IMG/VR virus record: IMGVR_UViG_2671180885_000005
DNA from: a virus
Taxonomy: Duplodnaviria; Heunggongvirae; Uroviricota; Caudoviricetes
DNA: 46,052 nucleotides
Direction: 5' to 3' (one strand)
The translations under genes and the position numbers were made by a program. A model generated the notes under the pieces. That model saw only the letters and a program-made list of their open reading frames with translations, ran no database searches and had not been told where the DNA came from. Every line of letters begins with the position of its first letter. The stretch's first letter is position 1. Positions 1,445 through 46,052 of this stretch are shown piece by piece.

Positions 1445-1454
1445 TTAAAATCAA
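1399..1454 (+). repeat. attL: 56-bp direct repeat, 3' part of thrW plus 10 bp downstream
   Basis: ATTCGTAATGCGAAGGTCGTAGGTTCGACTCCTATTATCGGCACCATTAAAATCAA occurs identically at 1399..1454 and 36724..36779; an integrase gene abuts this copy. Confidence 0.85.
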
Positions 1455-1458
1455 TAAG

Positions 1459-4595: not shown

Positions 4596-4722
4596 TTTGT
4601 TCTCCACGTATATGCGCTGCACCGCGCTGAGTTTGGGTAAAAGGAAGCCCTCACCATCCGGTGATTATTGAGTTAATTACGTTTCCATAAATGCCCCCGC
4701 AGGGGCATTTGCAGTAATGAAA

Positions 4723-5547: not shown

Positions 5548-5612
5548 AATAAGTCCTCACTATATAAAGATATTCAGTGATGAGATAAATAATCAGTTTA
5601 TTAAGAACGATA

Positions 5613-5975: not shown

Positions 5976-6575
5976 TTTGCTGCTCCTCATCATATCGACC
6001 CTGCAAGGCCGATTAGTTTCTCCACAAAACAGAGAAGAACACCTGCGGTGGCAGCCGCCCGGATGGATTGGGTTATGAGCCCGTCGTCCGGTGATGCTCT
6101 TCTCTGTTTTGTAAAAAGAGCGGTACCAGCCGGAAGCAAGGGTACAAACTGGTACCGCCAGGACTACACACAGCATAAAGTTGTGGTGCCGGGTGCCTCC
6201 CGGTGCCTGGCGAAGGTTGCACACCAGACGGGTGGGTATCCACAGAAGGTCGACTGTCAGCCTCAACCTTAACCCGCGTGCGCTGAGCCGCATTCACCAC
6301 AACGCTAAGGATTCTCTCTGGTTGAAAATACTTAGCTGTTATGTGCCTGTCTTTTCACCACTTCAGGCTCGGTGGTATCCTTTTAAGCCCGTATACATAA
6401 AAGGAAAATCAAATGACTTTTGATGAAAAAGAACTTGATAATGCAATTAATAAAATCATCGTAACGTCGCTCTTTTCCTGTCTCAGCGACACTCAGCAGA
6501 AACAGTTCTACGAATCGGCTTTCAACATGATCGAGCGTTGTTGTTTCTGCGATGCCGACGAGTTACCTGAAAAAA

Positions 6576-6851
6576 TCAGGAAACAGTTGGCTGATGCTCT
6601 TCGAGTGCGACTTTCTGACCAATTTTCTGAAATGTGCTCTCCGAATTTGGACAAATAGAAAAAGGCCATTTCCATTCAGGGTCTGATGGAAATACTTCAG
6701 CCTGTTCCAAAGCACGGTGTAAAGAGAACACAACTCCAGCCATAATCTGATGTTTCCCATTGGTCCAGCTATCGCCGCTCTGATCTACAGGAGCGGCTAT
6801 GTCGTATGACCAAACGACTTCACCACTATTGTTTAAAATCTGGACTTTCAT
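6576..6851 (-). CDS. hypothetical protein (91 aa)
   Basis: ORF with GGAGG SD before the ATG at 6851, immediately after the upstream minus-strand gene; its 3' end overlaps antisense with the plus-strand ORF 6413..6658, so only one may be real. Confidence 0.45.
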   Translation of the reverse strand: MKVQILNNSGEVVWSYDIAAPVDQSGDSWTNGKHQIMAGVVFSLHRALEQAEVFPSDPEWKWPFSICPNSESTFQKIGQKVALEEHQPTVS

Positions 6852-6859
6852 TTTGTTCT

Positions 6860-7063
6860 TTAACCTCCAGATTTCCGCGCATCTAAAGGCGCATTCTCAT
6901 TTGGTGTGAACTGAATAGTTGTGCTGATATTGATTAATGCCCCGACACACAAGACTACGCACTCAGAGCAGATAGCAACTTCATCTTTTCCGCCTTTGGC
7001 GATGATTTTTTTTGCCTGCAGCTCGTTTGCGCTACAAAACGAGCATGTGAAATAACGGTTCAT
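6860..7063 (-). CDS. small protein with ClpX-type C4 zinc-finger motif
   Basis: MNRYFTCSFCSANELQAKKIIAKGGKDEVAICSECVVLCVGALI resembles the ClpX N-terminal zinc-binding domain (CSFC...CxxC); start uncertain between 7063 and 7081. Confidence 0.55.
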   Translation of the reverse strand: MNRYFTCSFCSANELQAKKIIAKGGKDEVAICSECVVLCVGALINISTTIQFTPNENAPLDARKSGG

Positions 7064-7168
7064 TTGCGCTCTCTTACACATAGTATTTAACGAATCATCC
7101 GGTCATTCATACGCCACCGGCGGCTACTTCGTGGGCGTCCTGCCTGTTCGTTATCTTTGATATAAAAT

Positions 7169-7182
7169 CTAACTTAACTTAG
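7169..7182. promoter_or_regulatory. candidate OL operator (CTAAC-N4-CTTAG palindrome)
   Basis: 14-bp near-palindrome CTAACTTAACTTAG in the intergenic region downstream of the repressor gene; same motif as the two sites between cI and cro. Confidence 0.4.
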
Positions 7183-7247
7183 TTATTATGGCAAGAGAAA
7201 ACACCAAACTTTTCTTAGTTCGGTGCCTTAGTTAGAGAAGAGAGGTC

Positions 7248-7874
7248 TTAGAGTTCGTATTGAACTCCTTTGACTACACCAATGATAAGGCAATTACCAT
7301 TGATAGGGATGTTGGGATACCGAGGATTTAATGGCACTAAAAACTTTTGAGGGCCATCGATGACTAATTTTTTTACTGTAGCTTCGTTTGTTCCATCAAG
7401 TCGAGCGATGACTATTTTTCCATGACGAGGTTCTGCATCTGGATCTACAATCACTGTTGCGCCTTCTGGTATTGTTGGGAGGCCATTAGGGTTAGTCATG
7501 GAGTCACCTTTAACCTCTAATGCAAATGAGTTATCACCAATCTTTAATGATGTATCTACCCACTTGTCCACTTCACTAAACACTTCTGCTGCCCTGCACT
7601 CAGTAAACTGCCCAGCCTGAACCCACGATATTACAGGAACTCTGCGCATGTTTGTGACGAGTTTGCCTTCAAACTCAGCACCATAAAGAATGTAATCTAT
7701 TGACGTATTGAAGAACTTCGCTAATTTCGAAAGTGCCTCCCCACCAGGGGTATTGATGTCTTTCTCCCAGTACCCCACAGCAACGTCGCTTACTCCACAA
7801 AATTTACCCAATTCTTTCTGGGACGTTCTGGTAACTCTTCTCAGAGCTTTTATACGCTGACCAACCGTTTCCAT
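7248..7874 (-). CDS. cI: CI-like prophage repressor (HTH-XRE plus S24 LexA-like peptidase domain)
   Basis: N-terminal HTH (QKELGKFCGVSDVAVGYWEKD), C-terminal S24 autoprotease motif (GDSMTNPNG...K); divergent from a cro-like gene. Confidence 0.9.
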   Translation of the reverse strand: METVGQRIKALRRVTRTSQKELGKFCGVSDVAVGYWEKDINTPGGEALSKLAKFFNTSIDYILYGAEFEGKLVTNMRRVPVISWVQAGQFTECRAAEVFSEVDKWVDTSLKIGDNSFALEVKGDSMTNPNGLPTIPEGATVIVDPDAEPRHGKIVIARLDGTNEATVKKLVIDGPQKFLVPLNPRYPNIPINGNCLIIGVVKGVQYEL

Positions 7875-7896
7875 AGGAGCACCATTTTTTGAATTG

Positions 7897-7910
7897 CTAA
7901 GTAATCTTAG
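7897..7910. promoter_or_regulatory. candidate OR operator site 1 (CTAAG-TAAT-CTTAG perfect palindrome)
   Basis: Perfect 14-bp palindrome in the cI–cro intergenic region. Confidence 0.45.
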
Positions 7911-7945
7911 TTTTTATTGACCAAAGATAGATTTGTAATTAGCAT

Positions 7946-7959
7946 CTAACAAAACTTAG
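7946..7959. promoter_or_regulatory. candidate OR operator site 2 (CTAAC-AAAA-CTTAG)
   Basis: Second copy of the same motif 36 bp from site 1, just upstream of the cro SD. Confidence 0.4.
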
Positions 7960-7971
7960 TTTGGAGGGCGT

Positions 7972-8172
7972 ATGACAACTGACGATATCGAAAGCTACTT
8001 CGGCAGTATTGAGAAAGTTGCTGCTTTTTTCGGCATAACAACTGAAGCCGTTTATCAGTGGCGAAACCGTCCGGGCCAGTTAATTCCAAAAGGACGTGCA
8101 GCAGAAGCTGCATATAGAACTTGCGGACGGTTGCCATTTAAACCTGAGCTTTATGAAAAATCTAATGGATAA
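7972..8172 (+). CDS. cro: Cro-like / YdaS-like HTH regulator
   Basis: 66-aa ORF divergent from cI, SD GGAGGG before the ATG; HTH segment FGITTEAVYQWRNR. Confidence 0.75.
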   Translation: MTTDDIESYFGSIEKVAAFFGITTEAVYQWRNRPGQLIPKGRAAEAAYRTCGRLPFKPELYEKSNG

Positions 8173-8761
8173 ATCGATTAACAGAAACCACAGAACGATG
8201 AGGCTAACCGTGGGTAAGCATCACTGGAAAGTAGAAAAACAGCCTGAGTGGTACGTGAAAGCTGTCAGAAAAACTATCGCAAAGTTGCCGGGTGGTTACG
8301 CTGAAGCAGCTGACTGGCTGGATGTAACAGAGAACGCATTATTTAACCGCCTTCGTGCCGATGGCGATCAGATTTTCCCGCTGGGATGGGCAATGATTTT
8401 GCAACGTGCTGGTGGAACTCACTTCATTGCTGACGCTGTGGCGCAGTCTGCAAATGGCGTCTTTGTGTCTCTTCCTGACGTCGAGGATGTGGACAACGCC
8501 GATATTAACCAGCGTCTGCTGGAAGTCATTGAACAGATCGGCAGTTATTCAAAACAGATTCGTTCAGCAATCGAAGACGGTGTAGTGGAACCGCATGAGA
8601 AGACAGCAATTAACGACGAGCTGTATCTCTCAATTTCGAAGCTGCATGAGCATGCAGCACTGGTCTACAAAATCTTTTGCATTTCAGAAAGTAATGACGC
8701 CCGCGAGTGTGCAGCTCCGGGCGCCGTGGCGTGTCGTGACTGTGGAGAAACTAACGCATGA
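8153..8761 (+). CDS. YdaT/CII-like regulatory protein (putative)
   Basis: Immediately follows cro in the cII position; resembles the YdaT family that follows ydaS in Rac-like prophages. Start ambiguous (8096 GTG, 8153 ATG or 8165 ATG). Confidence 0.5.
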
Positions 8762-9096
8762 ACAGTTTAACAACACACTACCGTCGCTCGCAACTGATTG
8801 CGCTTCCTGTACCGGGTGGAAAAGCGAAGGTGGAGTATTGCTATGCAGTGAATGTACCAGGTGACAGGGAAATTGTAACCCACAGCTTTGCAGAGTGGGC
8901 TGTGGGTGATTTCAACCGGCAGAAGGAGACAGTCCTTTGCGACAAGTTAACCGCTGGTTCAAAGATCACTACGGAGTGCCCGTCAGAGTCATTCGTTGGG
9001 AGCCGGAAACACAACGGGTTATCTACCTCCGTGAAGGCTATGAGCATGAGTGCTTCAGCCCGCTCGAACAGTTTCGTCGTAAATTCAGGGAAATAG
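8758..9096 (+). CDS. hypothetical protein (112 aa)
   Basis: ORF start overlaps the upstream stop (ATGA), suggesting translational coupling; no recognisable family. Confidence 0.5.
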
Positions 9097-9105
9097 AGGT
9101 CGGTC

Positions 9106-10047
9106 ATGAGCACTAAATTAACCGGCTATGTATGGGATGGTTGCGCAGCGTCAGGCATGAAATTATCCAGCGTGGCAATTATGGCCCGCCTGGCTGATTT
9201 CAGTAATGACGAAGGTGTGTGCTGGCCATCAATTGAAACCATTGCCCGTCAGATTGGCGCGGGGATGAGTACCGTCAGGACGGCTATCGCACGGCTGGAA
9301 GCAGAAGGCTGGTTAACGCGTAAGGCGCGTCGCCAGGGTAACCGCAATGCGTCGAATGTTTATCAGCTTAACGTTGCGAAGCTTCAGGCAGCGGCATTTT
9401 CTCAACTGTCAGATTCTGACCCGTCAAAATCTGACGCATCAAAATCTGACCCGTCAAAATTTGATGCGTCGAAATCTGGCAAAAAAGCGGGTTTTCACCC
9501 GTCAGAATCTGGCGGGGATCCGTCAGTAAAATCAAAACATGATCCGTCAGATAAAAAACCTTCTCGTCCGGACGCTTCGCAACCGGACACGCAGACGGCT
9601 GAACAGTATTTTTTAACTCGCCATCCTGATGCGGTTGTATTCAGCCCTAAAAAGCGCCAGTGGGGGACGCAGGATGATTTGACCTGCGCACAGTGGCTCT
9701 GGAAAAAAATCATCGCCCTGTACGAGCAGGCCGCCGAATGTGACGGCGAGGTGGTTCGTCCCAAAGAACCGAACTGGACAGCCTGGGCAAACGAAATTCG
9801 CCTGATGTGTGTGCAGGATGGTCGTACTCACAAACAAATCTGCGAGATGTACAGCCGCGTCAGCCGCGATCCGTTCTGGTGCCGTAACGTGCTCAGCCCG
9901 TCGAAGCTGCGGGAAAAATGGGATGAGCTTTCCCTGCGCTTATCGCCGTCCGTAAGCACGTACACCGAAAAACGCGAAGACCCGTACTTCAAATCCAGTT
10001 ACGACAACGTGGACTACAGCCAGATCCCGGCAGGATTCAGGGGGTGA
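9106..10047 (+). CDS. phage replication initiation protein (O-like, N-terminal winged-helix)
   Basis: 313-aa ORF; N-terminal DNA-binding region (IETIARQIGAGMSTVRTAIARLEAEGWL); contains an internal array of ~15-bp iterons as in lambda O/ori. Confidence 0.8.
   Translation: MSTKLTGYVWDGCAASGMKLSSVAIMARLADFSNDEGVCWPSIETIARQIGAGMSTVRTAIARLEAEGWLTRKARRQGNRNASNVYQLNVAKLQAAAFSQLSDSDPSKSDASKSDPSKFDASKSGKKAGFHPSESGGDPSVKSKHDPSDKKPSRPDASQPDTQTAEQYFLTRHPDAVVFSPKKRQWGTQDDLTCAQWLWKKIIALYEQAAECDGEVVRPKEPNWTAWANEIRLMCVQDGRTHKQICEMYSRVSRDPFWCRNVLSPSKLREKWDELSLRLSPSVSTYTEKREDPYFKSSYDNVDYSQIPAGFRG
9406..9557 (+). repeat. iteron array (candidate origin of replication) inside the O-like gene
   Basis: Repeated ~15-bp units CCGTCAAAATCTGAC / GCATCAAAATCTGAC / CCGTCAAAATTTGAT / GCGTCGAAATCTGGC / CCGTCAGAATCTGGC / CCGTCAGTAAAATCA / CCGTCAGATAAAAAA visible in the sequence. 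Confidence 0.7.
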
Positions 10048-10049
10048 TC

Positions 10050-10538
10050 ATGAGTCTGTTAAATGACGTTCAGAAATTCATTGAAGCCCATCCGGGGTGT
10101 ACTTCCGGAGACATTGCGGATGCTTTTGCTGGTTACTCACGGCAGCGCGTTCTGCAGTCAGCAAGCAAGTTACGTCAGAGTGGGCGTGTGGCTCACCGTT
10201 GTGAAGGAGATACACGCAGACATTTCCCACGCCTGACTGAGAGAGCGCATGAGCCGGAACCACAACCAGTTCGTGAAACCAGACCTGTGCGCAATTTCTA
10301 TGTCGGCACTAACGATCCCCGGGTGATTTTGTGCCTGACCCGCCAGGCGGAAGAACTGGAGTCCAGGGGCTTATACCGTCGTGCTGCAACCTTGTGGATG
10401 GCGGCATTCCGTGAAAGCCACTCCCAGCCAGAACGAAACAATTTTCTGGCGCGTCGTGAGCGGTGCTTACGGAAAAGCAGCAAGCGCGCTGCATCGGGTG
10501 AAGAGTGGTATCTGTCAGGGAATTACGTGGGGGCTTAA
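10050..10538 (+). CDS. hypothetical protein (162 aa)
   Basis: ORF following the O-like gene, in the position of a helicase loader but without recognisable similarity; ATG at 10050 after a G-rich SD. Confidence 0.5.
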   Translation: MSLLNDVQKFIEAHPGCTSGDIADAFAGYSRQRVLQSASKLRQSGRVAHRCEGDTRRHFPRLTERAHEPEPQPVRETRPVRNFYVGTNDPRVILCLTRQAEELESRGLYRRAATLWMAAFRESHSQPERNNFLARRERCLRKSSKRAASGEEWYLSGNYVGA

Positions 10539-10864
10539 TGACGACGTTAACTCAATGCCAGCAGCAGGTGCTGGATATGCTGATTTCTTACCAGAAAGAA
10601 CGTGGCTTCCCGCCAACCAATCAGGAGGTGGCTACCATGCTGGGATACCGTTCAGTGAATGCAGCGGTGGAGCATCTTCGCGCACTGGAGAAAAAAGGCG
10701 TCATCACGATAAAGCGTGGCGTGGCACGGGGGATAACGCTTCATACCGCGGTGAAGGACGACGACAGCGAGGCGGTCGGGATTATCCGCTCACTGCTTGC
10801 CGGTGAGGAAAACGCCAGGCTGCGTGCAGCCCACTGGTTACATGAGAGGGGCCTGAAAGTATGA
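10538..10864 (+). CDS. LexA N-terminal DNA-binding-domain protein (no peptidase domain)
   Basis: MTTLTQCQQQVLDMLISYQKERGFPPTNQEVATMLGYRSVNAAVEHLRALEKKGVITIKRGVARGITL parallels the LexA N-terminal winged helix (LTARQQEV...MPPTRAEIA...[23 protein letters not shown]); only 108 aa, so the S24 domain is absent. Confidence 0.65.
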   Translation: MTTLTQCQQQVLDMLISYQKERGFPPTNQEVATMLGYRSVNAAVEHLRALEKKGVITIKRGVARGITLHTAVKDDDSEAVGIIRSLLAGEENARLRAAHWLHERGLKV

Positions 10865-11256
10865 AGCTGATCCTGCCTTTTCCGCCCAGCGTGAACACGT
10901 ACTGGCGACACCCCAACAAAGGGGCGTTTGCTGGTAAGAGCCTGATAAGCGCGGCGGGGCGCAAATTCCAGAGCGCGGCGTGTGCAGCAATAGTTGAGCA
11001 GTTACGTCGTCTGCCAAAACCAACGTCGGCACCTGCTTCAGTGGAGATCGTGTTGTTTCCTCCGGATAACCGGATCCGCGATCTGGACAACTATAACAAG
11101 GCGCTGTTTGACGCCCTGACCCACGCGGGTGTGTGGGAAGACGACAGACAGGTGAAAAGAATGCTGGTGGAGTGGGGACCGGTTATCCCGAAAGGGAAGG
11201 TCGAGATCACTATCACTAAGTACGAAAAAGCGAGTTGCAAATTAGCAACTCGGTAA
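10861..11256 (+). CDS. rusA: Holliday-junction resolvase RusA
   Basis: 131-aa ORF with motifs LPFPPSVNTYWRH...RDLDNYNKALFDALT...WEDDRQV typical of RusA. Confidence 0.85.
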   Translation: MKLILPFPPSVNTYWRHPNKGAFAGKSLISAAGRKFQSAACAAIVEQLRRLPKPTSAPASVEIVLFPPDNRIRDLDNYNKALFDALTHAGVWEDDRQVKRMLVEWGPVIPKGKVEITITKYEKASCKLATR

Positions 11257-11418
11257 CGGAATTGAGCAACACCCTAAATTTGGGTATTACCTCGTTAAAG
11301 ATACTGTATTTATGAACAGTGTATCCTTGATAACTATTAAAAATCGCAGTAAGTTCATCCTGCATCAACGAAAAGGGAGTGCAGTCCCGCTCGTGGATAA
11401 AAATTTGTGGAGAAACCA

Positions 11419-12234
11419 ATGAATCAGTTGCTTGTAATTGATGGCGTTTCTGTGCGCCAGTACTTCGAATCTAACTACTGTCTTAACGACCTTCAGAAAG
11501 CTGCTCTTCTTGCCGCTGGTGAGAATCGCTCCTCCCGTTCGCTGGAAGTTCACGAGTTTATGCGTCGTCCTGAAACGAAGGCTCTTGTGGAATTATTGGA
11601 AGAAGAAACTACGGGAGATTCCCGTAGTATTCCTGTCATCACCATTCAGGGGCGCAATGGTGGGACGTATGTCTGTAAAGAGCTGGTCTATGCATATGCA
11701 ATGTGGATCAGCCCGGCATTCAGCTTAAAAGTGATACGTACTTTTGATGCGCTTCATAATTCATCACCAGAAGAAACCACATCCGACAAAATTAAATCCG
11801 GGGTCATTCTGCTTGAATCAGCAGCAAAGACTCTAAATCTGTCAAACTCCTCGAAACTTGGTGCATACCAGAAATTATCAAAGGTAGCTGGTCTTCCTGA
11901 ACTTATGCCGATCTATGCCATTGATGCACCTGCTGATGCGCCAGATGGTTCAAGCCGCCCTACGCTGTCGCTGAGTGCACTGCTGAAGCAGTATGGTATC
12001 CGCCTGACGGCTAATCAGGCATATCACCAGATGGCGAAGCTGGGGATCGTTGAACAACGCGAACGATACAGCCGTACCGCAATTAACAACATTAAAAAAT
12101 TCTGGTCGCTGACGGCGAAAGGCTGCATGTTCGGCAAGAATATCACCAGTCCCGCAAATCCACGTGAGACGCAGCCGCATTTCTTCGAATCCCGATTCCC
12201 TGAGCTGTTAAAGCTGCTCGATACCGTTCATTGA
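11419..12234 (+). CDS. KilA-N domain protein
   Basis: ATG at 11419 after GGAGA; segment GTYVCKELVYAYAMWISPAFSLKVIRTFD matches the KilA-N domain signature. Confidence 0.7.
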   Translation: MNQLLVIDGVSVRQYFESNYCLNDLQKAALLAAGENRSSRSLEVHEFMRRPETKALVELLEEETTGDSRSIPVITIQGRNGGTYVCKELVYAYAMWISPAFSLKVIRTFDALHNSSPEETTSDKIKSGVILLESAAKTLNLSNSSKLGAYQKLSKVAGLPELMPIYAIDAPADAPDGSSRPTLSLSALLKQYGIRLTANQAYHQMAKLGIVEQRERYSRTAINNIKKFWSLTAKGCMFGKNITSPANPRETQPHFFESRFPELLKLLDTVH

Positions 12235-12235
12235 G

Positions 12236-13231
12236 GTGACCGTGAGAGCACTACTGACCCCTGAAATTGCCCCGCGTATGGGGATCGTATTGTTCAGGCC
12301 AGGTTCAGAGCTGATGCCCCTGTTTATGCAGGGGCGAGTCCTGCTGGAGCCTGAGCCGGAACGTTATTCATCTTTCGCCAGTGGTGCCGTTCCGGCGGCA
12401 TCACAACCGCTGGCGGATGATCCTGCCGTTCGGGCCGTGTTCCGCAATGAGGCAGTGATCCGTCGTGCTGGTGGCGTGGAATGTCTTGAAAGCTGGTTAC
12501 TTCGTGAAAAAGGCTGCCAGTGGCCTCATTCCGACTGGCACAGCGAGAACATGACCACAATGCGACACGTGCCGGGCGCAATCCGTCTGTGCTGGCACTG
12601 CGATAACCAGATGCGCGATCAGTTCACGGAACGGCTGGAATCAATGGCAACGGATAACTGTGCCCGCTGGGTGTTGTCTGTTGTGCGTCGGGATCTCGGT
12701 TTTGATGACAGTCACGTTGTGACAATGCCGGAACTGTGCTGGTGGCTGATTCGTAATGATCTGGCGGATGCCTTACCGGAAAGTGCAGCCCGTAAGGCAC
12801 TGAGATTACCGAAGCCTGTTGTGCCGTCTGTTACCCGGGAAAGTGACCTTGTGCCTTCGGTTCCTGCCACCAGCATCATCCTGGATAAGGCGAAAAAGGT
12901 GCTGGCGCTGAAAGTGGATCCGGAGTCGCCGGAGTCTTTTATGTTACGCCCCAAACGTCGCCGCTGGGTTAATGAAAAGTACACGCGCTGGGTTAAGACA
13001 CAGCCGTGTGCATGTTGTGGAAGGCCCGCTGATGATCCCCATCACCTGATAGGTTACGGTCAGGGTGGAATGGGAACAAAAGCGCATGACCTTTTTGTGT
13101 TGCCTTTGTGCAGAAAGCATCACGACGAGCTGCATGCGGATACCGTGGCATTTGAAGAGAAGTATGGCTCCCAACTGGAGCTGATATTTCGTTTTATCGA
13201 TCGCGCGCTGGCGATTGGTGTGTTGGCCTGA
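12236..13231 (+). CDS. DUF968-family protein (YdfU-like) with C-terminal Cys/His motif
   Basis: 331-aa ORF (GTG start); C-terminal CACCGRPADDPHH...CRKHHDELH resembles the DUF968/HNH-like region of Qin-prophage YdfU. Confidence 0.65.
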   Translation: MTVRALLTPEIAPRMGIVLFRPGSELMPLFMQGRVLLEPEPERYSSFASGAVPAASQPLADDPAVRAVFRNEAVIRRAGGVECLESWLLREKGCQWPHSDWHSENMTTMRHVPGAIRLCWHCDNQMRDQFTERLESMATDNCARWVLSVVRRDLGFDDSHVVTMPELCWWLIRNDLADALPESAARKALRLPKPVVPSVTRESDLVPSVPATSIILDKAKKVLALKVDPESPESFMLRPKRRRWVNEKYTRWVKTQPCACCGRPADDPHHLIGYGQGGMGTKAHDLFVLPLCRKHHDELHADTVAFEEKYGSQLELIFRFIDRALAIGVLA

Positions 13232-13248
13232 TTTGGTGGAGAAAGTTG

Positions 13249-13614
13249 ATGCGTGATATTCAGATGGTTCTGGAGCGTTGGGGAGCATGGGCGGCGAGTG
13301 ATAGTTCTGGAGTAGACTATTCGCCTATAGCTGCTGGGTTTAAGGGGCTTCTTCCCTACACAAGCAAAACACGTCAGGCTTGTTCAGATAGTGATGCATT
13401 AATTATTGAAGGTTGTCTTGCTCGTCTAAAGCAAAAAAAGCCAGATGAGCACTCGCTGCTTGTGGCACATTATTTATACAGAATATCCAAGCGTAAGATT
13501 GCAAAGGTGCGTGGAAAGGATGAAAAATTGGTACGCATAGAAATACAACTAGCCGAAGGATTTATTGATGGTTGCCTTTCAATGTTGGATGTTAACCTTG
13601 AAATGGACGCTTAG
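13249..13614 (+). CDS. late-gene antiterminator Q (QuuD-type)
   Basis: N-terminus MRDIQMVLERWGAWAA... matches my recollection of DLP12 QuuD and related Q proteins; GGAGA SD before the ATG at 13249. Confidence 0.8.
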   Translation: MRDIQMVLERWGAWAASDSSGVDYSPIAAGFKGLLPYTSKTRQACSDSDALIIEGCLARLKQKKPDEHSLLVAHYLYRISKRKIAKVRGKDEKLVRIEIQLAEGFIDGCLSMLDVNLEMDA

Positions 13615-13620
13615 GGTTGC

Positions 13621-13650
13621 ACAGGTTGGCCCCATATGAGGCCAACCTGT
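13621..13650. promoter_or_regulatory. perfect 11-bp-stem hairpin (ACAGGTTGGCC / GGCCAACCTGT, 8-nt loop)
   Basis: Seen directly; lies between the Q stop and the stop of the convergent minus-strand membrane-protein gene, with no adjacent U-tract on either strand. Confidence 0.4.
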
Positions 13651-14099
13651 CACAAGTGGGGGAAGATTTTTCGTAACACTAACCAACACCTTCCGAAGGT
13701 ATATAGCGAAATTATAAGGGAGGATAAGCCTAACAGTATGAATAGGAAATCAATAGGTTTGCCCGCAACAATAACATCATCAGGTAGAAACATCGCTATC
13801 AATGGAAATATACATGCGACGATGAGAGTTAACCCTGTTGAAAGTAATCTATTTACCAGAGTTGGTAACACGTTGTTTTGCTTAAGGGCATTAATTGCTC
13901 CTTCCTTATCGCTGTTTGCACTACTAAATATAGATATTGCAGCCAGAACAAAACCAAACAGGATGCCTGATATAGTCGAGAGCACCCCCGCTGTTGTGAG
14001 TACGTCAGCATGCTTCATCGGTTTAAACAGTTTTGTCGCTGCATAGGTCAACAGAATCCAGAGGACGCATTTCCAGAGAAAAGTGGCTAATTCTCTCAT
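13650..14099 (-). CDS. small polytopic membrane protein (about four predicted TM helices), cargo gene 2
   Basis: Start taken at the ATG at 14099 with GGAGG 5 nt upstream; four hydrophobic stretches (FLWKCVLWILLTYAATKLF; VLTTAGVLSTISGILFGFVLAAISIF; STGLTLIVACIFPLIAMFL; IDFLFILLGLSSLIISLYTF); 21 bp after the stop of the upstream gene. Confidence 0.6.
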   Translation of the reverse strand: MRELATFLWKCVLWILLTYAATKLFKPMKHADVLTTAGVLSTISGILFGFVLAAISIFSSANSDKEGAINALKQNNVLPTLVNRLLSTGLTLIVACIFPLIAMFLPDDVIVAGKPIDFLFILLGLSSLIISLYTFGRCWLVLRKIFPHL

Positions 14100-14120
14100 T
14101 GTGTCCTCCATGCTTGGTTA

Positions 14121-15062
14121 TTAGTCTCTGCTAGCGAGCTCATACTGTGCAAGATAGTTCGCGTTATCAATTTTAGCAGATATCATCGCCGTTCTGATAT
14201 CAGAATCGGATGGATAACCGCTTTTGACAATGATTGTCTTTGTACTGACCAATACTTGGTCAAGTAGACTTTTGGGCGTTCTATTGGATGGCTCTGTTAC
14301 ATCAATTTTTTTAATTTTTAGACCTCCAGAACCTTTTGGAAAAAGTTCAAGTAGTTCCTTAATAGCATCGGTGACAGAAGTTTTTAGATAGTTAAACCCT
14401 TGTTTTTTCGGGCGAATCCGACCTCGCATATTTAATCTTAGATGCGACCCGCCCATACCAACAACCATGTCAATAATTTCATTAGCTAAAGGGTTTTTAA
14501 TCTTATAATTAGCTTTGTTAAAGTTTCTTGGAGCAGCAACTATAAGATCGAAACTACGTAGGATATTTCCGTCCTCAAGCAGTTCCTTCATGCTCTCTTG
14601 TTTCCAAATGGCTTCAAAAGTGACGCTTTTTAAATCAGTTTTGTTATACAAAATGAATGCCAGATCATTTACTTTGGGCCCTATATGGTTGAGGGTCATA
14701 GCTAATAAGTCCGTTTCGTAGTAATAGATAAAATATGTTCTTTCAACTACAGAATCTTTATCATTTAAAGGAATTGTTCTCTCACTACCTGTAGCATCCT
14801 CGATGAACGGTAGTAGGCATTCCCTTCTCCACGATACGTAACCAAAGTAACATTGCAGTGTGGTATCTTTTTGAAGAATAACTAACTTTAACCCTCGATT
14901 TGGGGTGTATGTTGTGTAAGTTATTGGAAAAGTTACAGTATCTGCTGTGGTCATTTGCTCAAAGGCTAGTTTTGCAGCAGATGTGCCATCTTTTTTGCTT
15001 CCATTACCAGTGAAAAAACCAACTCTCACTCGCCTGGTTTTATTCTTATTTTCTGTACTCAT
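14121..15062 (-). CDS. hypothetical soluble protein (313 aa), cargo gene 1
   Basis: Long AT-rich ORF antisense to the phage late genes, in the Q–holin moron position; no family recognised by eye. Confidence 0.6.
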   Translation of the reverse strand: MSTENKNKTRRVRVGFFTGNGSKKDGTSAAKLAFEQMTTADTVTFPITYTTYTPNRGLKLVILQKDTTLQCYFGYVSWRRECLLPFIEDATGSERTIPLNDKDSVVERTYFIYYYETDLLAMTLNHIGPKVNDLAFILYNKTDLKSVTFEAIWKQESMKELLEDGNILRSFDLIVAAPRNFNKANYKIKNPLANEIIDMVVGMGGSHLRLNMRGRIRPKKQGFNYLKTSVTDAIKELLELFPKGSGGLKIKKIDVTEPSNRTPKSLLDQVLVSTKTIIVKSGYPSDSDIRTAMISAKIDNANYLAQYELASRD

Positions 15063-42483: not shown

Positions 42484-43347
42484 TCAGAAGAAGAAATCCC
42501 AGACGGCGCGGGCCACTGACACCACCGTGGTGCGCACGGCCTGAATGACAGCCCGTACCGGGGCGGGTATCAGGGGAAAGGCACTGATGCTATCGAGTAC
42601 GGCCCCGACGGTTTCACCAAAATCGCTACGAGCCTGTTCCCGGACTACCGTCGTGCGAAAGGAAGACTGGAGTTGCGACACCACCGGGCTGGTGGCCTCA
42701 CGTGGCAGGCACTTAATCATTCGCTCGGCCATCACCCGCAGTCCCCACTGAAGACGGACCGACACGGCACACACCGGATGTACGGGCTGGAACAGCTCAT
42801 GCAGCAGACAGATTTTACGGCTGATATTCTGCTTCTGCGCCGTGGACAACGGTCCCCCACCGCTGGTGGGTTCGGCCTTATCCGACTGGCTGATAACAAA
42901 CAGCACCTTATGCCGGTATACCTCTCCAATCACCTGATGATAAAAATGTTCATCCACCGCCAGCGCCCGGTCATCGGCCTTAATCAGCCACAGTACCAGG
43001 TCGAGGCGAGGAAGCTGTTCGCGGTACAGCGCAGCATACTCGGTATCGCGAGCACCACTTTCGCCCACGCCGGGCAGGTCCACCAGCGTCATATAGCGGT
43101 CGCCGACTTGCAGGCGAAAGCGCAGTGGCTCACGGGTACATGCAGCCACATCGCTGACCGGTGATATATCTCCGGCAAACAGGGCATTGCACAGACTGCT
43201 CTTCCCAACACCGGTTTTACCCATAATGCCGATCACTGGCTCGTAGCGGGTTAACTGATTTATCTGCTGCAATATACGTTCAGACACCCACTGTGGCAGA
43301 CCAGCGAGCGATTGCTGAAACGGCTTCAATCCTTCAGAATTGTTCAT
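42484..43347 (-). CDS. GTPase (YkfA/YfjP family)
   Basis: ATG at 43347 after GAGGAG; P-loop GKTGVGKSS and DLPG motif. Confidence 0.8.
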   Translation of the reverse strand: MNNSEGLKPFQQSLAGLPQWVSERILQQINQLTRYEPVIGIMGKTGVGKSSLCNALFAGDISPVSDVAACTREPLRFRLQVGDRYMTLVDLPGVGESGARDTEYAALYREQLPRLDLVLWLIKADDRALAVDEHFYHQVIGEVYRHKVLFVISQSDKAEPTSGGGPLSTAQKQNISRKICLLHELFQPVHPVCAVSVRLQWGLRVMAERMIKCLPREATSPVVSQLQSSFRTTVVREQARSDFGETVGAVLDSISAFPLIPAPVRAVIQAVRTTVVSVARAVWDFFF

Positions 43348-43453
43348 TACTACTCCTCTGAAAAATAATACAAAAACGGCAGAATCGTGAGATTCCACCG
43401 TTAATCTGGTATGTTCAAAGGGATGATATATATCTGAAAATTATTAACTTGAT

Positions 43454-44380
43454 CTACTTTTTGTCTTTTTTACGTGATGAAACAGCCTGCTGCCAAGCAT
43501 GCTTCATTTTCTGAATAAAGAAATATTTTTCTTCAACTCCAGTGTCCCAACTATCCATGCATGCAATGATCATCTGTATTCTCATTGCAGGGTTATATGG
43601 TTTTAAATAAAAGGGGATCATATTTTTATTTCTCAGATACTCCCAGCAATAGATAGCTTGCTTTTCATCTTTTTTATCTAGCCAGTCATAATCAGTAAGA
43701 AATGTATTATATTGCTCTAGCCATTTATCATGCAACTTACGAAAATAGGAAATTTTCTGACTTAAACTTACAGGAGCTAAATCAATAAACCTCATCAAAG
43801 TACAAATGCGTTCTTGTTCGGATGTTGTATTCGGGCTGTAGTTGTCGGGATCTGCGCCAGATGTTAAATAAAATCTACGCGAGTATTTTTCAGGTATATC
43901 TCTATTTTTTTCTTTATTGCTAGGGGAGATTCCCACCTGCATTTCGGCTTGTACTTCATCAAGTGAGAAATTTTTAATTTCATCAATGTTTATAAATTCA
44001 AAAAAGGATGCAGGAGTTGAGTTCGGGTTGTAAATATTATCTTGTGCAAAGATATTCACGCTCGAGGAGGTTTCAGGACTGATTCTGTTGTTATATATAT
44101 ACATTAAGGCAAACCACGATCCTCTATCAGAACCTTTGAAGCAATCGAACTTCTCTTTGTCAATGATTTTGTAATGGAACTGTTTTTTCAAGTAAGTACG
44201 CGCACTTTGTATTGCTTCATTATTGAATAGGAATTTAGTGTTCAATATATGATTAATGAGTTTTTGAAATTCCTCAGGCGTGTCGAAATTACTCGCCTGC
44301 TTAATGTAATCTTCGTTGTAATACAGACTCAGAACGTAAAGGGAAAAGAACTCCTCTCTCACTTCGTCATACCTAAGCAT
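43454..44380 (-). CDS. hypothetical AT-rich protein (308 aa) heading the GTPase operon
   Basis: Long ORF, visibly AT-rich; no family recognised; occupies the slot where CP4-57 carries rnlAB. Confidence 0.55.
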   Translation of the reverse strand: MLRYDEVREEFFSLYVLSLYYNEDYIKQASNFDTPEEFQKLINHILNTKFLFNNEAIQSARTYLKKQFHYKIIDKEKFDCFKGSDRGSWFALMYIYNNRISPETSSSVNIFAQDNIYNPNSTPASFFEFINIDEIKNFSLDEVQAEMQVGISPSNKEKNRDIPEKYSRRFYLTSGADPDNYSPNTTSEQERICTLMRFIDLAPVSLSQKISYFRKLHDKWLEQYNTFLTDYDWLDKKDEKQAIYCWEYLRNKNMIPFYLKPYNPAMRIQMIIACMDSWDTGVEEKYFFIQKMKHAWQQAVSSRKKDKK

Positions 44381-44829
44381 GTACCCTCCAGTGTGATATC
44401 ACATCTGTCCGATGCTTTCAAAAGTATAAATGAACCATGATGATTTGGCATCTGCAAGGTGACTGTTGACTGGTTTTTTGCTGATTTTTTAATGATAAAG
44501 TAGTGATTACTAACTGATTAGTAAGTGATTAATGGCTGGTTGCCTCCTGTGATTTTTCTGCCTCTGGTAAATTGGGGGAGAGTACTGATCAACTCACCAC
44601 TCTGAATAATTTTCATGATTGCACTCTACAAAGTTTCGACATCCGTCAAATTGTAACGGTCAGAGAACAGCGTTACACGAGGTTTTCCGTATCTATGCAT
44701 TCTTAGTTGGGTAGCTCAACTGCTCCTTCCAGATCTTTTTTTACGTCACACCCCATTCATGTGGAGGAGAAGGCGTGAACAATTAGTTATCGCCTGCTCC
44801 GGTGCTCTTCTCGCAATGGGACACTCAGC

Positions 44830-45036
44830 ATGAAAACTAAACCTGCACTACTGGAAGATGAGTTCATCGATATGAAGTTTATCACACGCCTTACTGGCCT
44901 GAGTGATAAATGGTTCTATAAGTTGATACAGGAAGGGGTATTTCCGAAACCCATTAAGATGGGTAGAGCTTCTCGCTGGTTAAAAAGCGACCTGGAGGAG
45001 TGGTTGCAGGCTAAAATTAATGATTCCAGAAATTAA
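44830..45036 (+). CDS. alpA: AlpA-family phage regulatory protein / excisionase
   Basis: FITRLTGLSDKWFYKLIQEGVFPKPIKMGRASRWLKSDLEEWL is a typical AlpA HTH. Confidence 0.8.
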   Translation: MKTKPALLEDEFIDMKFITRLTGLSDKWFYKLIQEGVFPKPIKMGRASRWLKSDLEEWLQAKINDSRN

Positions 45037-45440
45037 ATATTTTGGACTGTGTTTATCAAATTCCATGCCCTTTTTGCTGCTTAATTTTAAATGACACTCT
45101 GATCATGCACCGTGATTGAAATAAGTTATAGCCACCCCTTAATCATTTTTTTCAGACGACATTAACTTCGGAGTAAATAATTTAACACAATGAAATATCA
45201 AACCGCATCTGGCCTGAATGTTGAGTATTAATACGTGACGGATTGTTAATATATATCAGTACATAAACCCCAACATTCCAGTAATACACACCTACGCAAT
45301 ACACACCAAGCAATTTAGTCAGCATCACCCAACTAACATCCAACACAAACTCAATAAGCCAGATTTGATACCACCTAATTACCTCAACCATCGCGGGTAA
45401 GGTTCCGTCCTGCCCGATATTCATATCACAGGAATCTATT

Positions 45441-46052
45441 ATGCTTAATGATATTTATCTTGACCAACGTCATGCCCCATTCAATACAACGTATTTGCAA
45501 CGGATGCTGGGTGTAATTGATAACGCTATAGCACAACACCCAAGGACAATGGCTGTCCGTGTCGATCTACGTCTGCCTGATGACAACTGTAATAGGAATA
45601 GTGGTCTGATATCCCGTTTCATTGAATCGCTTAATGCAAAAATCGATGCTCGGTACCGAAATAAAATAAAGAATGGCATCAGGAGCTACCCATGCCAGTT
45701 GCGTTACGCCTGGGTTCGGGAAGTGGGAGAAATAAACGAGAAGTCCCATTACCACATGGTACTTTTCGTGAACAAAGACACATTCAATGGACTTGGGAGC
45801 TATGGAGAAGGGGGAACGGGATTAGCCAGCCTGATACGTGAAGCCTGGCTGAGCGCTTTGCAACTAGGCCCTTACCCCGAATACCGAACGTTGGTCCACA
45901 TCCCGGACAACCCATTGTATTACCTGGACGTCAATAATTTAGACTACAAAACGGTTTACGATAAGCTCACTTTCCGTCTGAGCTACTTTGCGAAAGAGCG
46001 CACCAAGTCATACAGCCGGAATGAACGCTCGTTTGGCTGCAGTCAGTCCTGA
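45441..46052 (+). CDS. YagK/YfjJ-family (inovirus Gp2-like) protein
   Basis: 203-aa ORF ending at the window edge with a stop codon; position after alpA as in CP4-type islands. Family assignment is from memory and weak. Confidence 0.5.
   Translation: MLNDIYLDQRHAPFNTTYLQRMLGVIDNAIAQHPRTMAVRVDLRLPDDNCNRNSGLISRFIESLNAKIDARYRNKIKNGIRSYPCQLRYAWVREVGEINEKSHYHMVLFVNKDTFNGLGSYGEGGTGLASLIREAWLSALQLGPYPEYRTLVHIPDNPLYYLDVNNLDYKTVYDKLTFRLSYFAKERTKSYSRNERSFGCSQS

What the first reader, a model, noticed from the sequence alone, without database searches (positions are those of the whole stretch)
43454..44380. AT-rich 308-aa orphan gene at the head of the island GTPase–DUF932–WYL operon, in the slot where CP4-57 carries rnlAB
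In CP4-type islands the block upstream of the YkfA/YfjP GTPase is variable; in K-12 CP4-57 that position holds the RnlA/RnlB anti-phage toxin-antitoxin pair. Here a single, visibly AT-rich 308-aa ORF with no recognisable motif occupies it, co-directional with GTPase, DUF932 and an HTH-WYL regulator (WYL regulators often control defence loci). A 450-bp intergenic region with an 18-bp palindrome separates it from a divergent alpA.
Basis: partly seen in the sequence, partly recalled or inferred. Interest (0 to 1): 0.6.

Follow-up and report, generated by a model that had tools for sequence, protein, structure and literature searches.

The report
Conserved island regulator-like gene, not cargo
The AT-rich 308-codon gene is real, but it is not a piece of variable defence cargo: it belongs to an undescribed protein family that always opens the conserved block of this type of genomic island, carries its own phased DNA-repeat control region, and marks the edge of a defence-gene hotspot that is empty in this strain.

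Summary
The ORF at 43454..44380(-) is 308 aa and 35% GC, next to genes of about 57% GC. It has a strong ribosome-binding site, shows purifying selection (dN/dS 0.17), and hits nothing in Pfam, NCBIfam, PADLOC or PHROGs.

Homologues at 22-79% identity hold the same position in more than 20 loci from about 13 genera, and in a copy of the module on Klebsiella plasmids. Each is the first rightward gene, divergent from AlpA and/or a YagK/YfjJ HUH-type protein, and in the chromosomal Enterobacterales islands upstream of the GTPase/DUF932/RadC block.

In other genera the real defence slot lies between this gene and the GTPase. It holds Gabija, Septu, PDC-S15, a HerA-type protein or a Mokosh-like protein. 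Here that gap is 106 nt, so the slot is empty.

The protein is all-helical with an internal duplication (residues 32-102 and 185-252). Most distant relatives end in a ribbon-helix-helix domain, giving a MatP-like architecture. This clade has lost that domain.

Seven 11-bp-phased ATCA(G/C) repeats lie upstream of the promoter, and an inverted pair of the same core lies downstream of it. The repeat core follows the protein clade, not the host, AlpA, YagK or the GTPase. Control region and gene are exchanged together as one cassette.

My best reading is an autoregulated DNA-binding control protein of the island. This is inferred, not shown.

The parts
43454..44380 (-). CDS of the 308-aa protein. 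It belongs to an uncharacterised island-backbone family and to the clade that lacks the C-terminal RHH domain.
   Evidence: ORF. RefSeq 'hypothetical protein'. No curated family. 217 family representatives in the exhaustive HMM search. A profile built only from distant RHH-bearing members scores this ORF 129 bits. dN/dS 0.17.
44075..44287 (-). Helical repeat unit 1 (residues 32-102), ending in the F-x-C-F...D-R-x-S-W-F-A-x-x-Y-I motif.
   Evidence: hhalign of the N-domain against the C-domain of the 61-sequence family alignment: probability 97.9%, E 5.7e-13, 66 columns. AF2 pLDDT above 90.
43841..44068 (-). Variable linker (residues ~105-180), predicted disordered. Its length varies between genera.
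   Evidence: pLDDT 40-50. Indel-rich columns in the alignment.
43625..43828 (-). Helical repeat unit 2 (residues 185-252), with the motif Y-D-W-L-D-K-K-D-E-K-Q-A-I-Y-C-W-E-Y-L.
   Evidence: This is the most conserved part of the family. Most distant hits match profile positions 180-300.
43457..43624 (-). C-terminal helices (residues 253-308), including the basic helix KMKHAWQQAVSSRKKDKK. The protein stops where relatives continue into a ribbon-helix-helix domain.
   Evidence: Alignment view. RHH Pfam hits in relatives. Only 106 nt follow before the GTPase ATG, so no RHH is hidden downstream.
44459..44530 (-). Array of seven direct repeats at an exact 11-bp period, core (A/T)ATCA(G/C). Units on the - strand begin at 44530, 44519, 44508, 44497, 44486, 44475 and 44464; the last two are degenerate.
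   Evidence: An exact-11 chain of 5 was reached by 0 of 2000 shuffles. The same kind of array lies at -150..-80 in every RHH-less relative examined, including Yersinia; the exact-11 chain is short in K. pneumoniae L014 (2 units).
44423..44451 (-). Sigma-70-like promoter candidate (ATGCCA, 17 nt, TATACT), immediately downstream of the repeat array.
   Evidence: Consensus scan only. The region holds fewer promoter-like sites than its shuffles, so this is weak evidence.
44392..44403 (-). Perfect 12-bp palindrome TGTGATATCACA. It is an inverted pair of the array core (GTGAT|ATCAC), between the -10 candidate and the Shine-Dalgarno. Operator candidate.
   Evidence: Buttiauxella has CTGAT-N8-ATCAG at the equivalent place.
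44384..44389 (-). Shine-Dalgarno GGAGGG.
   Evidence: Conserved in Kluyvera.
43323..44826 (-). Exchangeable cassette: control region plus family gene plus short spacer.
   Evidence: In locus L030, nucleotide homology (75-81%) covers YagK, alpA and the GTPase but is absent across exactly this stretch. There a 22%-identical RHH-bearing allele with a different repeat core sits in its place.
43348..43453 (-). Empty defence-cargo slot (106 nt) between the family gene and the GTPase. It contains the terminator-like hairpin at 43375-43402.
   Evidence: The same gap is 1.2 to more than 8 kb in Klebsiella, Enterobacter, Citrobacter, Kluyvera and Escherichia sp. loci, and holds Gabija, Septu, PDC-S15, a HerA-type gene or a MkoC-like gene. 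Hairpin. Positions 43300-43445 are shared at about 91% identity with 111 other E. coli islands.
42484..43347 (-). YfjP/YkfA-type GTPase, the first gene of the conserved downstream block.
   Evidence: MMR_HSR1, E 7.8e-16. Annotation.
44830..45036 (+). Divergent alpA (AlpA/excisionase-type HTH).
   Evidence: PF05930, E 2.6e-8.
45441..46052 (+). YagK/YfjJ ('inovirus Gp2 family') gene, cut by the window end. It has an HUH-like motif, S-H-Y-H-M-V-L-F. It is the most widely conserved divergent partner of the family.
   Evidence: PF11726, E 3e-52, and a weak REP_ORF2-G2P hit. Partnered with family members also in Vibrio, a metagenome contig and plasmids.

Best explanation
ORF308 is a backbone gene of CP4-6/CP4-57-type integrative islands. 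It is not cargo. I propose that it encodes the island's own control-region DNA-binding protein.

Proposed mechanism (inferred):
- The protein is made from a promoter flanked by its recognition sites. Seven ATCA(G/C) repeats spaced one helical turn apart lie upstream of the -35. An inverted pair of the same core lies between the -10 and the ribosome-binding site.
- It binds these sites cooperatively and sets its own expression.
- It thereby also sets transcription entering the rightward block, from the GTPase through DUF932, WYL, antirestriction and RadC to CbtA. It may also affect the divergent alpA/YagK-YfjJ genes.
- Control region and gene form one specificity cassette, exchanged between islands much as immunity regions are exchanged between phages.

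Shown:
- The gene is real and under purifying selection.
- Its position is conserved across genera.
- The protein contains an internal duplication.
- Most distant relatives carry a C-terminal RHH in a MatP-like arrangement, and this clade lacks it.
- The phased array exists, is far beyond chance, and its core follows the protein clade.
- The cassette has defined boundaries.
- Defence systems insert downstream of the gene in other genera.

Inferred:
- That the protein, rather than another factor, binds the repeats.
- That an RHH-less member still binds DNA.
- The regulatory outcome.
For: 1. **Backbone position.** In every locus retrieved, the homologue is the first rightward gene. It is divergent from AlpA and/or YagK-YfjJ. 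In most chromosomal loci where downstream sequence was retrieved it lies upstream of the GTPase-DUF932-RadC block.
2. **DNA-binding ancestry.**
   - The exhaustive search finds 217 representatives.
   - Distant members carry an RHH (Pfam RepB-RCR_reg / RHH_1; alignment).
   - Their profile finds MatP as the top solved structure (E 0.0022, aligned over MatP 13-130).
   - hhalign against MatP gives probability 87%, E 4e-6.
   - The RHH-bearing profile alone scores ORF308 129 bits.
3. **Cis element.** There is an exact 11-bp chain of 4-6 units upstream of 10 of the 11 RHH-less relatives scored by shuffling. Nine of these were reached by 0 of 2000 shuffles, Kluyvera L006 (3 units) by 1 of 2000, and K. 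pneumoniae L014 (2 units) by 13 of 2000. The Yersinia relative L038 shows six such units by eye. An inverted pair of the same core lies downstream of the -10.
4. **Co-variation.**
   - L030 has AlpA 79%, YagK 83% and GTPase 82% identical to the window. Its family allele is only 22% identical, and its 11-bp repeats have an ATTACT core.
   - A plasmid allele has 5 x TAAAACC.
   - Islands with AlpA at only 59-69% and YagK at 45-51% keep ATCAG as long as they carry an RHH-less allele.
   - In Yersinia both array types occur, each with its own protein type.
   - Budvicia keeps the array without YfjR.
5. **Cassette boundaries** fall at the alpA start and at the GTPase 5' end.
Against: - ORF308 and its clade lack the RHH, which in relatives is the obvious DNA-reading element.
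- Without the RHH, the similarity to the MatP helical domain is weak: probability 25%, essentially the WxWxYL motif.
- Array and gene are physically linked. Their co-variation could therefore reflect co-inheritance rather than recognition.
- A-tracts phased at 11 bp could act as intrinsically curved or H-NS-targeted DNA.
- The promoter assignment rests on a weak consensus scan.
- There are no expression or binding data.
Confidence: 0.45

Rival explanations
1. Origin or oriT accessory factor. The divergent intergenic region would be the island's replication or transfer origin. The 11-bp repeats would be iterons or a 'bind locus' for the HUH-type YagK/YfjJ protein. The family protein, ancestrally RHH like relaxosome and RCR-plasmid accessory proteins, would help assemble that complex. 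The genes transcribed away from it (antirestriction, RadC, DUF932) would act as a leading region.
For: - YagK/YfjJ is the most widely conserved divergent partner. It is present in Vibrio, a metagenome contig and plasmids, where the GTPase is absent.
- It has an HUH-like motif and a weak REP_ORF2-G2P hit.
- Relatives hit Pfam 'Replication regulatory protein RepB'.
- From general knowledge: RHH accessory proteins and 11-bp direct repeats are classical at RCR origins and oriTs.
Against: - The repeat core does not follow YagK. An 83%-identical YagK goes with a different core, and 45-51%-identical YagKs go with the same core.
- No conserved nick-site hairpin was identified.
- In E. coli and Kluyvera, alpA lies between YagK and the array.
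- ORF308 lacks the RHH.
Confidence: 0.2
2. One reading: a novel single-gene anti-phage defence or anti-defence cargo gene.
For: - The gene is AT-rich and fast-evolving (about 79% identity against 98% for DUF932 in the same pair of islands).
- The allele is replaced between closely related islands.
- It lies beside a defence hotspot and inside an island rich in defence genes (type I RM beyond YagK).
Against: - No PADLOC hit.
- Position and orientation are fixed in more than 20 loci across about 13 genera, at 22-79% identity.
- Genuine defence systems are inserted next to it, not instead of it.
- It has its own conserved control array.
- Its relatives are RHH proteins.
- Its nearer kin are absent from phages and plasmids.
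Confidence: 0.08
3. A maintenance or segregation module: a centromere-like iteron array, an adaptor protein (ORF308) and the downstream GTPase, analogous to tubC-TubR-TubZ or parC-ParR-ParM.
For: - Gene order is array, then ORF308-family gene, then GTPase, with only a short spacer, in E. coli, Kluyvera, Buttiauxella, Salmonella and Yersinia.
- ORF308 and the GTPase diverge at similar rates (dN/dS 0.17 and 0.15).
- From general knowledge: ParR is an RHH protein that binds 11-bp iterons flanking its own promoter.
Against: - The GTPase is an Era/dynamin-like P-loop protein, not a known cytomotive filament.
- Defence cargo of up to more than 8 kb separates the two genes in many loci.
- The plasmid, Vibrio and metagenome members have no adjacent GTPase.
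- A terminator-like hairpin separates the two genes here.
Confidence: 0.1
4. A protein-protein adaptor with no DNA binding. After losing the RHH, the clade would act by binding another island or host protein through its two helical repeat units, for example through death-fold-like bundles.
For: - The RHH is lost in the whole clade, yet purifying selection continues.
Against: - Foldseek finds nothing.
- This reading leaves the clade-specific conserved repeat array and palindrome unexplained.
Confidence: 0.12

Closest known systems
MatP (macrodomain Ter protein; Pfam PF06303 + PF17414; PDB 3vea/4d8j, 7nyw)
   Same: - At family level the architecture matches: a helical domain with a W-x-W-x-Y-L helix, a basic linker helix (KMKKAWSQKKHR against NRMKQTIRARRKRHF), then a ribbon-helix-helix.
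- MatP is the top PDB sequence hit of the family profile (E 0.0022).
- hhalign gives probability 87%.
- The repeat core (G/C)TGAT loosely resembles the matS half-site GTGAC. That half-site is recalled from memory, so this is only a lead.
   Different: - ORF308 has no RHH and no C-terminal coiled coil.
- It has an extra N-terminal copy of the helical unit and a roughly 75-residue disordered linker.
- With the RHH removed, similarity falls to probability 25%.
- It is encoded on mobile islands in variable alleles, not as a single-copy housekeeping gene.
- Its putative sites are phased direct repeats, not isolated 13-bp palindromes.
RHH transcriptional or plasmid regulators that bind iterated repeats (CopG / RepB-RCR_reg, omega of pSM19035, ParR of R1)
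   Same: - Distant family members hit RepB-RCR_reg and RHH_1.
- Each gene sits behind an array of short direct repeats next to its own promoter.
- From general knowledge: the omega heptad WATCACW and the ParR 11-bp iterons are close formal parallels to the ATCA(C/G) 11-bp array.
   Different: - The RHH is absent from ORF308 and its clade.
- The proteins are 4-6 times larger, with two copies of a helical unit not seen in those regulators.
- Binding is untested.
RnlA/RnlB and other cargo of the CP4-57 yfjJ-yfjP interval
   Same: Same general neighbourhood: upstream of the YfjP-type GTPase in a CP4-type island.
   Different: - No sequence or profile similarity to any PADLOC model.
- ORF308 is positionally conserved across genera, whereas such cargo is not.
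- CP4-57 contains no member of this family.
- In CP4-57, alpA and yfjJ are co-directional with the GTPase.
YfjH of CP4-57 (318 aa, divergent from alpA)
   Same: Similar size and the same placement, divergent from alpA.
   Different: No detectable homology: hhalign probability 0.3% and no Pfam family. It is a positional analogue at most.

Membership tests
MatP family | N-terminal four-helix DNA-binding bundle (PF06303) | tested here: inconclusive
MatP family | Central ribbon-helix-helix domain (PF17414) | tested here: not met
   ORF308 ends at SSRKKDKK, where relatives begin the RHH. Only 106 nt follow before the next gene. The feature is met in distant relatives.
MatP family | C-terminal coiled coil, and a chromosomal single-copy gene binding matS in the Ter region | tested here: not met
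   The protein has no residues after the basic helix. The gene is on a mobile island and present in only 34 of 5426 complete E. coli genomes. matS binding cannot be tested with these tools.
RHH (CopG/Arc/MetJ-type) regulators | beta-alpha-alpha RHH fold | tested here: not met
   The AF2 model is all-helical with no strand. There is no RHH Pfam hit for ORF308. Some relatives hit RHH_1 or RepB-RCR_reg (6 and 12 of the 48 scanned).
RHH (CopG/Arc/MetJ-type) regulators | Binding to tandem or inverted short repeats overlapping its own promoter | not testable with these tools
   The repeats exist and are significant. Binding needs EMSA or footprinting.
Known anti-phage defence systems (PADLOC; RnlAB-type TA) | Match to a defence-protein model, or a two-gene toxin-antitoxin arrangement | tested here: not met
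   PADLOC gives 0 families at E<=1. It is a single gene with no small partner ORF, and it is conserved in position while defence systems insert beside it.
Known anti-phage defence systems (PADLOC; RnlAB-type TA) | Protection against phage | not testable with these tools
   Needs phage challenge of a clone.
Plasmid partition adaptors (ParR / TubR type) | Iterated centromere repeats upstream of an adaptor gene adjacent to a cytomotive NTPase | tested here: inconclusive
   The array and the adaptor-like position are present. The adjacent NTPase is an Era/dynamin-like GTPase, not ParM, ParA or TubZ. It is separated or absent in many loci.
Death-fold (PYD/CARD/DED/DD) or bacterial death-like domains | Six-helix bundle with death-fold topology | tested here: inconclusive
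The new family itself (CP4-type island tandem helical-repeat proteins) | Two copies of a ~70-residue helical unit ending in F-x-W-L-x(2-3)-D-x(2-3)-C-x-W-x-W-x-Y-L | tested here: met
   hhalign of N-domain against C-domain: probability 97.9%, E 5.7e-13. The profile of distant members scores ORF308 129 bits.
The new family itself (CP4-type island tandem helical-repeat proteins) | First rightward gene, divergent from AlpA/YagK-YfjJ, preceded by short phased repeats | tested here: met
   The same holds in more than 20 loci.

The most novel reading that the evidence does not exclude
The family is a previously unrecognised, mobile-element-borne relative of MatP. It would be a tandem-repeat helical DNA organiser with its own iterated 'centromere/operator' array, exchanged as specificity cassettes between islands.

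This could work in one of two ways:
- Together with the adjacent GTPase and the YagK/YfjJ HUH protein, it maintains, replicates or segregates the excised island.
- It represents the stock from which chromosomal MatP of the enteric and Vibrio lineage was domesticated.

The RHH-less clade would then use a new mode of reading DNA, through the duplicated WxWxYL helical unit.
Probability: 0.12. Interest if true: 0.8.

Novelty: new variant of a known kind. Interest (0 to 1): 0.5.

Why it matters
CP4-6/CP4-57-type islands are among the commonest genomic islands of Enterobacterales. They carry many defence systems, toxin-antitoxin pairs and adhesins. Beyond AlpA, almost nothing is known about how their conserved block is controlled.

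- **A testable control element.** The work identifies an unannotated family of at least 217 clusters at 50% identity, together with a candidate cis element. This gives a concrete handle for studying regulation, excision and maintenance of these islands.
- **Annotation.** The family gene and the YfjP-type GTPase can serve as paired anchors for a defence hotspot. That hotspot held Gabija, Septu, PDC-S15, a HerA-type gene or a Mokosh-like gene in the five genomes inspected. The anchors could be used to mine new systems. In the present window the slot is empty.
- **Evolution of MatP.** The distant MatP-like architecture in a mobile-element family found so far only in Enterobacterales, Vibrio and, on one plasmid, Aeromonas raises a testable question about where MatP came from.

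Tried and rejected
**Sequence and structure searches that found nothing**
- Pfam, NCBIfam, PADLOC and PHROGs on ORF308: nothing usable.
- PDB sequence search with the close-kin profile: only noise (egg lysin, E 0.44).
- Foldseek against PDB and BFVD: no match with E below 1.
- PDB sequence search with the repeat unit alone: nothing significant.
- tblastn of ORF308 against the plasmid and phage collections: no match.
- Rfam on 43200-45500: nothing.

**Tools or runs that failed or were uninformative**
- The first AlphaFold run, with 6 sequences, was unusable (pLDDT 44). It was repeated with 61 sequences.
- The afdb50 and afdb_sample libraries were unavailable.
- The word-index search with the 61-sequence profile added almost nothing.
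- The MatP search returned only near-identical E. coli sequences among the rows shown. The MatP profile used therefore has just 3 sequences.

**Ideas rejected**
- 'Rho GTPase-activating protein', the name NCBI gives the Budvicia homologue. No RhoGAP or other Pfam domain is on record for it, and members occur without any GTPase neighbour. I treat the name as an annotation artefact.
- Homology to YfjH of CP4-57, the gene divergent from alpA in K-12. Rejected at hhalign probability 0.3%.
- A paralogue elsewhere in the window, in CP4-57, or in the E. coli C or H6 thrW islands. None found.
- AlpA, YagK/YfjJ, YfjR or a host factor as the protein that determines the repeat core. This is disfavoured by the co-variation pattern but not excluded.

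**Literature**
- Searches for YagK/YfjJ, for the DUF932/RadC/antirestriction/CbtA module and for 'MatP-like' found no description of this family.
Full report
**1. The observation**

The ORF at 43454..44380 on the minus strand is real. It is 308 codons long and starts with ATG. A GGAGGG Shine-Dalgarno lies 3 nt upstream.

The gene is 35% GC, while the GTPase just downstream is 57% GC. The switch is sharp, near 43400. At this composition an open frame of that length has a chance probability of about 1e-10.

RefSeq annotates the identical gene as a hypothetical protein. It lies between a 'GTPase family protein' and a divergent AlpA-type regulator. Compared with the Kluyvera orthologue, dN/dS is 0.17. 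That is similar to the adjacent GTPase (0.15) and higher than DUF932 (0.02), so the gene codes for a protein under purifying selection.

It matches nothing in Pfam, NCBIfam or PADLOC, and only noise in PHROGs. The island sits at thrW (tRNA-Thr CGT at 1369-1444), next to a complete prophage.

Near-identical copies (>=99% identity) occur in 34 of 5426 complete E. coli genomes; 29 of them hold at least 80% of the 1.6-kb query. All are chromosomal.

**2. The gene is backbone, not cargo**

The indexed search of 5.8 billion proteins found only eight clusters. They come from Kluyvera (78%), Buttiauxella (42%) and Budvicia (35%). In all of these the gene has the same place. It is divergent from alpA and YagK/YfjJ, and co-directional with the GTPase and DUF932.

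A scan of one genome per species added Klebsiella, Enterobacter, Citrobacter, Enterobacillus, Yokenella and an Escherichia sp.. The arrangement was the same in each.

The exhaustive profile search found 217 cluster representatives. Those I could place are:
- Yersinia P0010 and Salmonella/E. coli P0012, both without an RHH;
- Budvicia P0016 and Yersinia P0022, both with an RHH;
- Vibrio vulnificus P0023, metagenomic P0063, and a module inserted in Klebsiella IncFIB/HI1B plasmids.

All of them again sit as the first rightward gene, divergent from a YagK/YfjJ gene. Those in Enterobacterales chromosomes lie directly upstream of the GTPase.

A profile built only from the distant RHH-bearing members scores the window ORF 129 bits. 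It finds no second copy in the window, in K-12 CP4-57, or in two other E. coli thrW islands.

**3. Where the variable slot really is**

In the Klebsiella, Enterobacter, Citrobacter, Kluyvera sp. and Escherichia sp. loci, 1.2 to more than 8 kb separate the family gene from the GTPase. That space holds:
- Gabija (GajA/GajB) in K. pneumoniae ATCC 13883;
- Septu (PtuA/PtuB) in Escherichia sp. ESNIH1;
- PDC-S15 in Kluyvera sp.;
- a HerA-type gene in Klebsiella sp.;
- a MkoC-like helicase in Enterobacter wuhouensis.

So the family gene and the GTPase flank a defence hotspot. In the window the gap is 106 nt and contains only a terminator-like hairpin (43375-43402, -25.9 kcal/mol, z -3.5). The slot is empty here.

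That leader belongs to the GTPase block. 111 other E. coli genomes share positions 43300-43445 at about 91% identity and then diverge, exactly at the ORF's stop codon. Upstream they carry other content: an IS5 remnant plus a heat-resistance island in E. coli C, and a helicase/nuclease/methyltransferase cluster in strain H6. K-12 CP4-57 has abpAB, yfjM and rnlAB between yfjJ and yfjP, and no family member.

**4. The protein**

With a 61-sequence alignment, AlphaFold gives a confident all-helical model (pLDDT 82.6, pTM 0.75). It has two ordered parts, residues 1-105 and 185-307, joined by a disordered and length-variable linker.

The two parts are homologous. Residues 32-102 align with 185-252 at hhalign probability 97.9%, E 5.7e-13. 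Each unit ends in an aromatic motif. In the family consensus it reads F-x-W-L-x-x-K-D-x-x-Q-C-x-W-A-W-x-Y-L. In ORF308 the two copies are FDCFKGSDRGSWFALMYI and YDWLDKKDEKQAIYCWEYL.

After the second unit comes a basic helix (KMKHAWQQAVSSRKKDKK), and there the protein stops. Most of the family continues into a further ~45 residues. A minority of members reach Pfam's RHH_1 or RepB-RCR_reg individually (6 and 12 of the 48 scanned); the family consensus shows the RHH pattern.

ORF308 and its near kin all end at the same point (Kluyvera, Buttiauxella, Budvicia P0008, Yersinia P0010, Salmonella P0012). There is no room for a hidden RHH downstream. The loss is therefore an old feature of the clade, not a pseudogene lesion.

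**5. Closest known relative**

The profile of RHH-bearing members finds MatP as the best solved structure. E is 0.0022 and 0.012, aligned over MatP residues 13-130, which covers both the helical bundle and the RHH. hhalign against a small MatP alignment gives probability 87%, E 4e-6.

The link is much weaker for what ORF308 retains. With the RHH removed, probability falls to 25% and only the WxWxYL helix aligns. The repeat unit alone finds nothing in the PDB. Foldseek finds nothing in PDB or BFVD.

In short, the family has a MatP-like architecture. ORF308 fails the defining RHH test and is not a MatP family member.

**6. The control region**

Seven direct repeats lie upstream of the gene at an exact 11-bp period. 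Their core is (A/T)ATCA(G/C), and on the minus strand they begin at 44530, 44519, 44508, 44497, 44486, 44475 and 44464. A chain of five exact-11 units was never reached in 2000 shuffles.

The array lies just upstream of the only promoter-like site (44451-44423). A perfect 12-bp palindrome, TGTGATATCACA (44392-44403), lies between the -10 and the Shine-Dalgarno. It is an inverted pair of the same core.

The same kind of array is found at -150..-80 upstream of the RHH-less relatives: in 10 of the 11 scored (only two exact-11 units in K. pneumoniae L014), and in the Yersinia locus by eye. This holds although the surrounding intergenic sequence differs. RHH-bearing alleles also have phased repeats, but with other cores: ATTACT at an 11-bp period in L030, and 5 x TAAAACC in the plasmid module.

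**7. Who reads the repeats**

- Locus L030 has AlpA 79%, YagK 83% and GTPase 82% identical to the window. Only Kluyvera is closer. Yet its family allele is 22% identical, and its repeat core is different.
- Nucleotide homology between L030 and the window stops at the alpA start codon (44827) and resumes at 43322, inside the GTPase. So 43323-44826 behaves as one exchangeable cassette.
- Islands whose AlpA is only 59-69% identical and whose YagK is 45-51% identical keep the ATCAG core, provided they carry an RHH-less allele.
- In Yersinia both array types occur, each with its own protein type.
- Budvicia keeps the array without a YfjR/WYL gene.

The repeat core therefore follows the family protein. 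It does not follow the host, AlpA, YagK, the GTPase or YfjR. This is the main argument that the protein recognises its own upstream repeats.

The caveat is that gene and array are physically linked. Co-inheritance alone would give the same pattern.

**8. Verdict**

The interpretation as variable, possibly defensive cargo is not supported.

The best explanation is an autoregulated control-region DNA-binding protein of the island, encoded in an exchangeable specificity cassette (confidence about 0.45). The rivals are:
- an ori/oriT accessory factor working with the HUH-type YagK/YfjJ (0.2);
- a non-DNA-binding adaptor (0.12);
- a partition-like module with the GTPase (0.1);
- a defence or anti-defence gene (0.08).

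The family is undescribed in the curated libraries and in the literature I could search. I classify it as a new variant of a known kind: RHH/MatP-like DNA-binding proteins of mobile elements, here with a duplicated novel helical unit and a lost RHH.

Interest is moderate (0.5). It does give a testable handle on the regulation of a very common island type, a pair of anchors for a defence hotspot, and a possible mobile relative of MatP.

Noticed in passing
window 43348-43453; loci L010, L011, L013, L014, L015 (about 8.9-16 kb in each): The interval between the family gene and the YfjP-type GTPase is a defence hotspot in other Enterobacteriaceae. It holds Gabija, Septu, PDC-S15, a HerA-type gene or a MkoC-like gene. 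Several large ORFs there have no PADLOC hit (for example L022 659 aa, L015 527 aa, L013 455 aa, L011 374 aa) and could be new systems.
   Followed up: partly
window 43375-43402 (- strand): A stable terminator-like hairpin followed by a T-run lies in the leader of the GTPase gene. It is shared at about 91% identity with 111 other E. coli islands. In the predicted fold, an outer helix also pairs with the GTPase Shine-Dalgarno region. This suggests attenuation or antitermination control of the conserved block, possibly by the AlpA-type protein.
   Followed up: partly
window 45441-46052 (+), cut by the window end: The YagK/YfjJ ('inovirus Gp2 family') protein has an HUH-like motif (SHYHMVLF) and a weak REP_ORF2-G2P hit. 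It is the most widely conserved divergent partner of the family (Vibrio, a metagenome contig, plasmids). It may be a replication or mobilisation initiator of these islands.
   Followed up: partly
window 1-24000: The end of proA, thrW (1369-1444), an integrase and a complete prophage (terminase, portal, capsid) lie between thrW and the CP4-6-like block. The island block is therefore displaced from its tRNA by a second integration.
   Followed up: no
L001 22813-31104 (E. coli LCP17S3_I1, continuation beyond the window end): Beyond YagK the same island carries ISEc35 and a complete type I restriction-modification system (hsdM, hsdS, hsdR). In relatives the same side carries an MmeI-type enzyme with a helicase and a T5orf172-domain protein (Kluyvera), or a SIR2-domain protein and a large AAA protein (Buttiauxella). 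This is a second cargo region on the alpA/YagK side.
   Followed up: no
L036 (Klebsiella pneumoniae plasmid pRWS291.s3, IncFIB/IncHI1B) 1-14576: A complete CP4-like module is inserted in large Klebsiella plasmids. It comprises Gp2-like, AlpA, family member, WYL, DUF905, DUF932, antirestriction, RadC, DUF987 and CbeA/CbtA, but no GTPase. 21 plasmid records match.
   Followed up: partly
L005, L010-L022, about 200-230 nt upstream of the family gene: A conserved box, CCCCTTAATTATACTAAAAACCCAAATGTTCAT, occurs in the Buttiauxella- and Klebsiella-type intergenic regions but not in the window. It ends in ...TTCAT, which may be the reverse complement of a start codon of a small divergent ORF.
   Followed up: no
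P0008 (Budvicia aquatica homologue): NCBI names this homologue 'Rho GTPase-activating protein'. No Pfam domain supports the name, so it looks like an annotation artefact that could propagate.
   Followed up: partly
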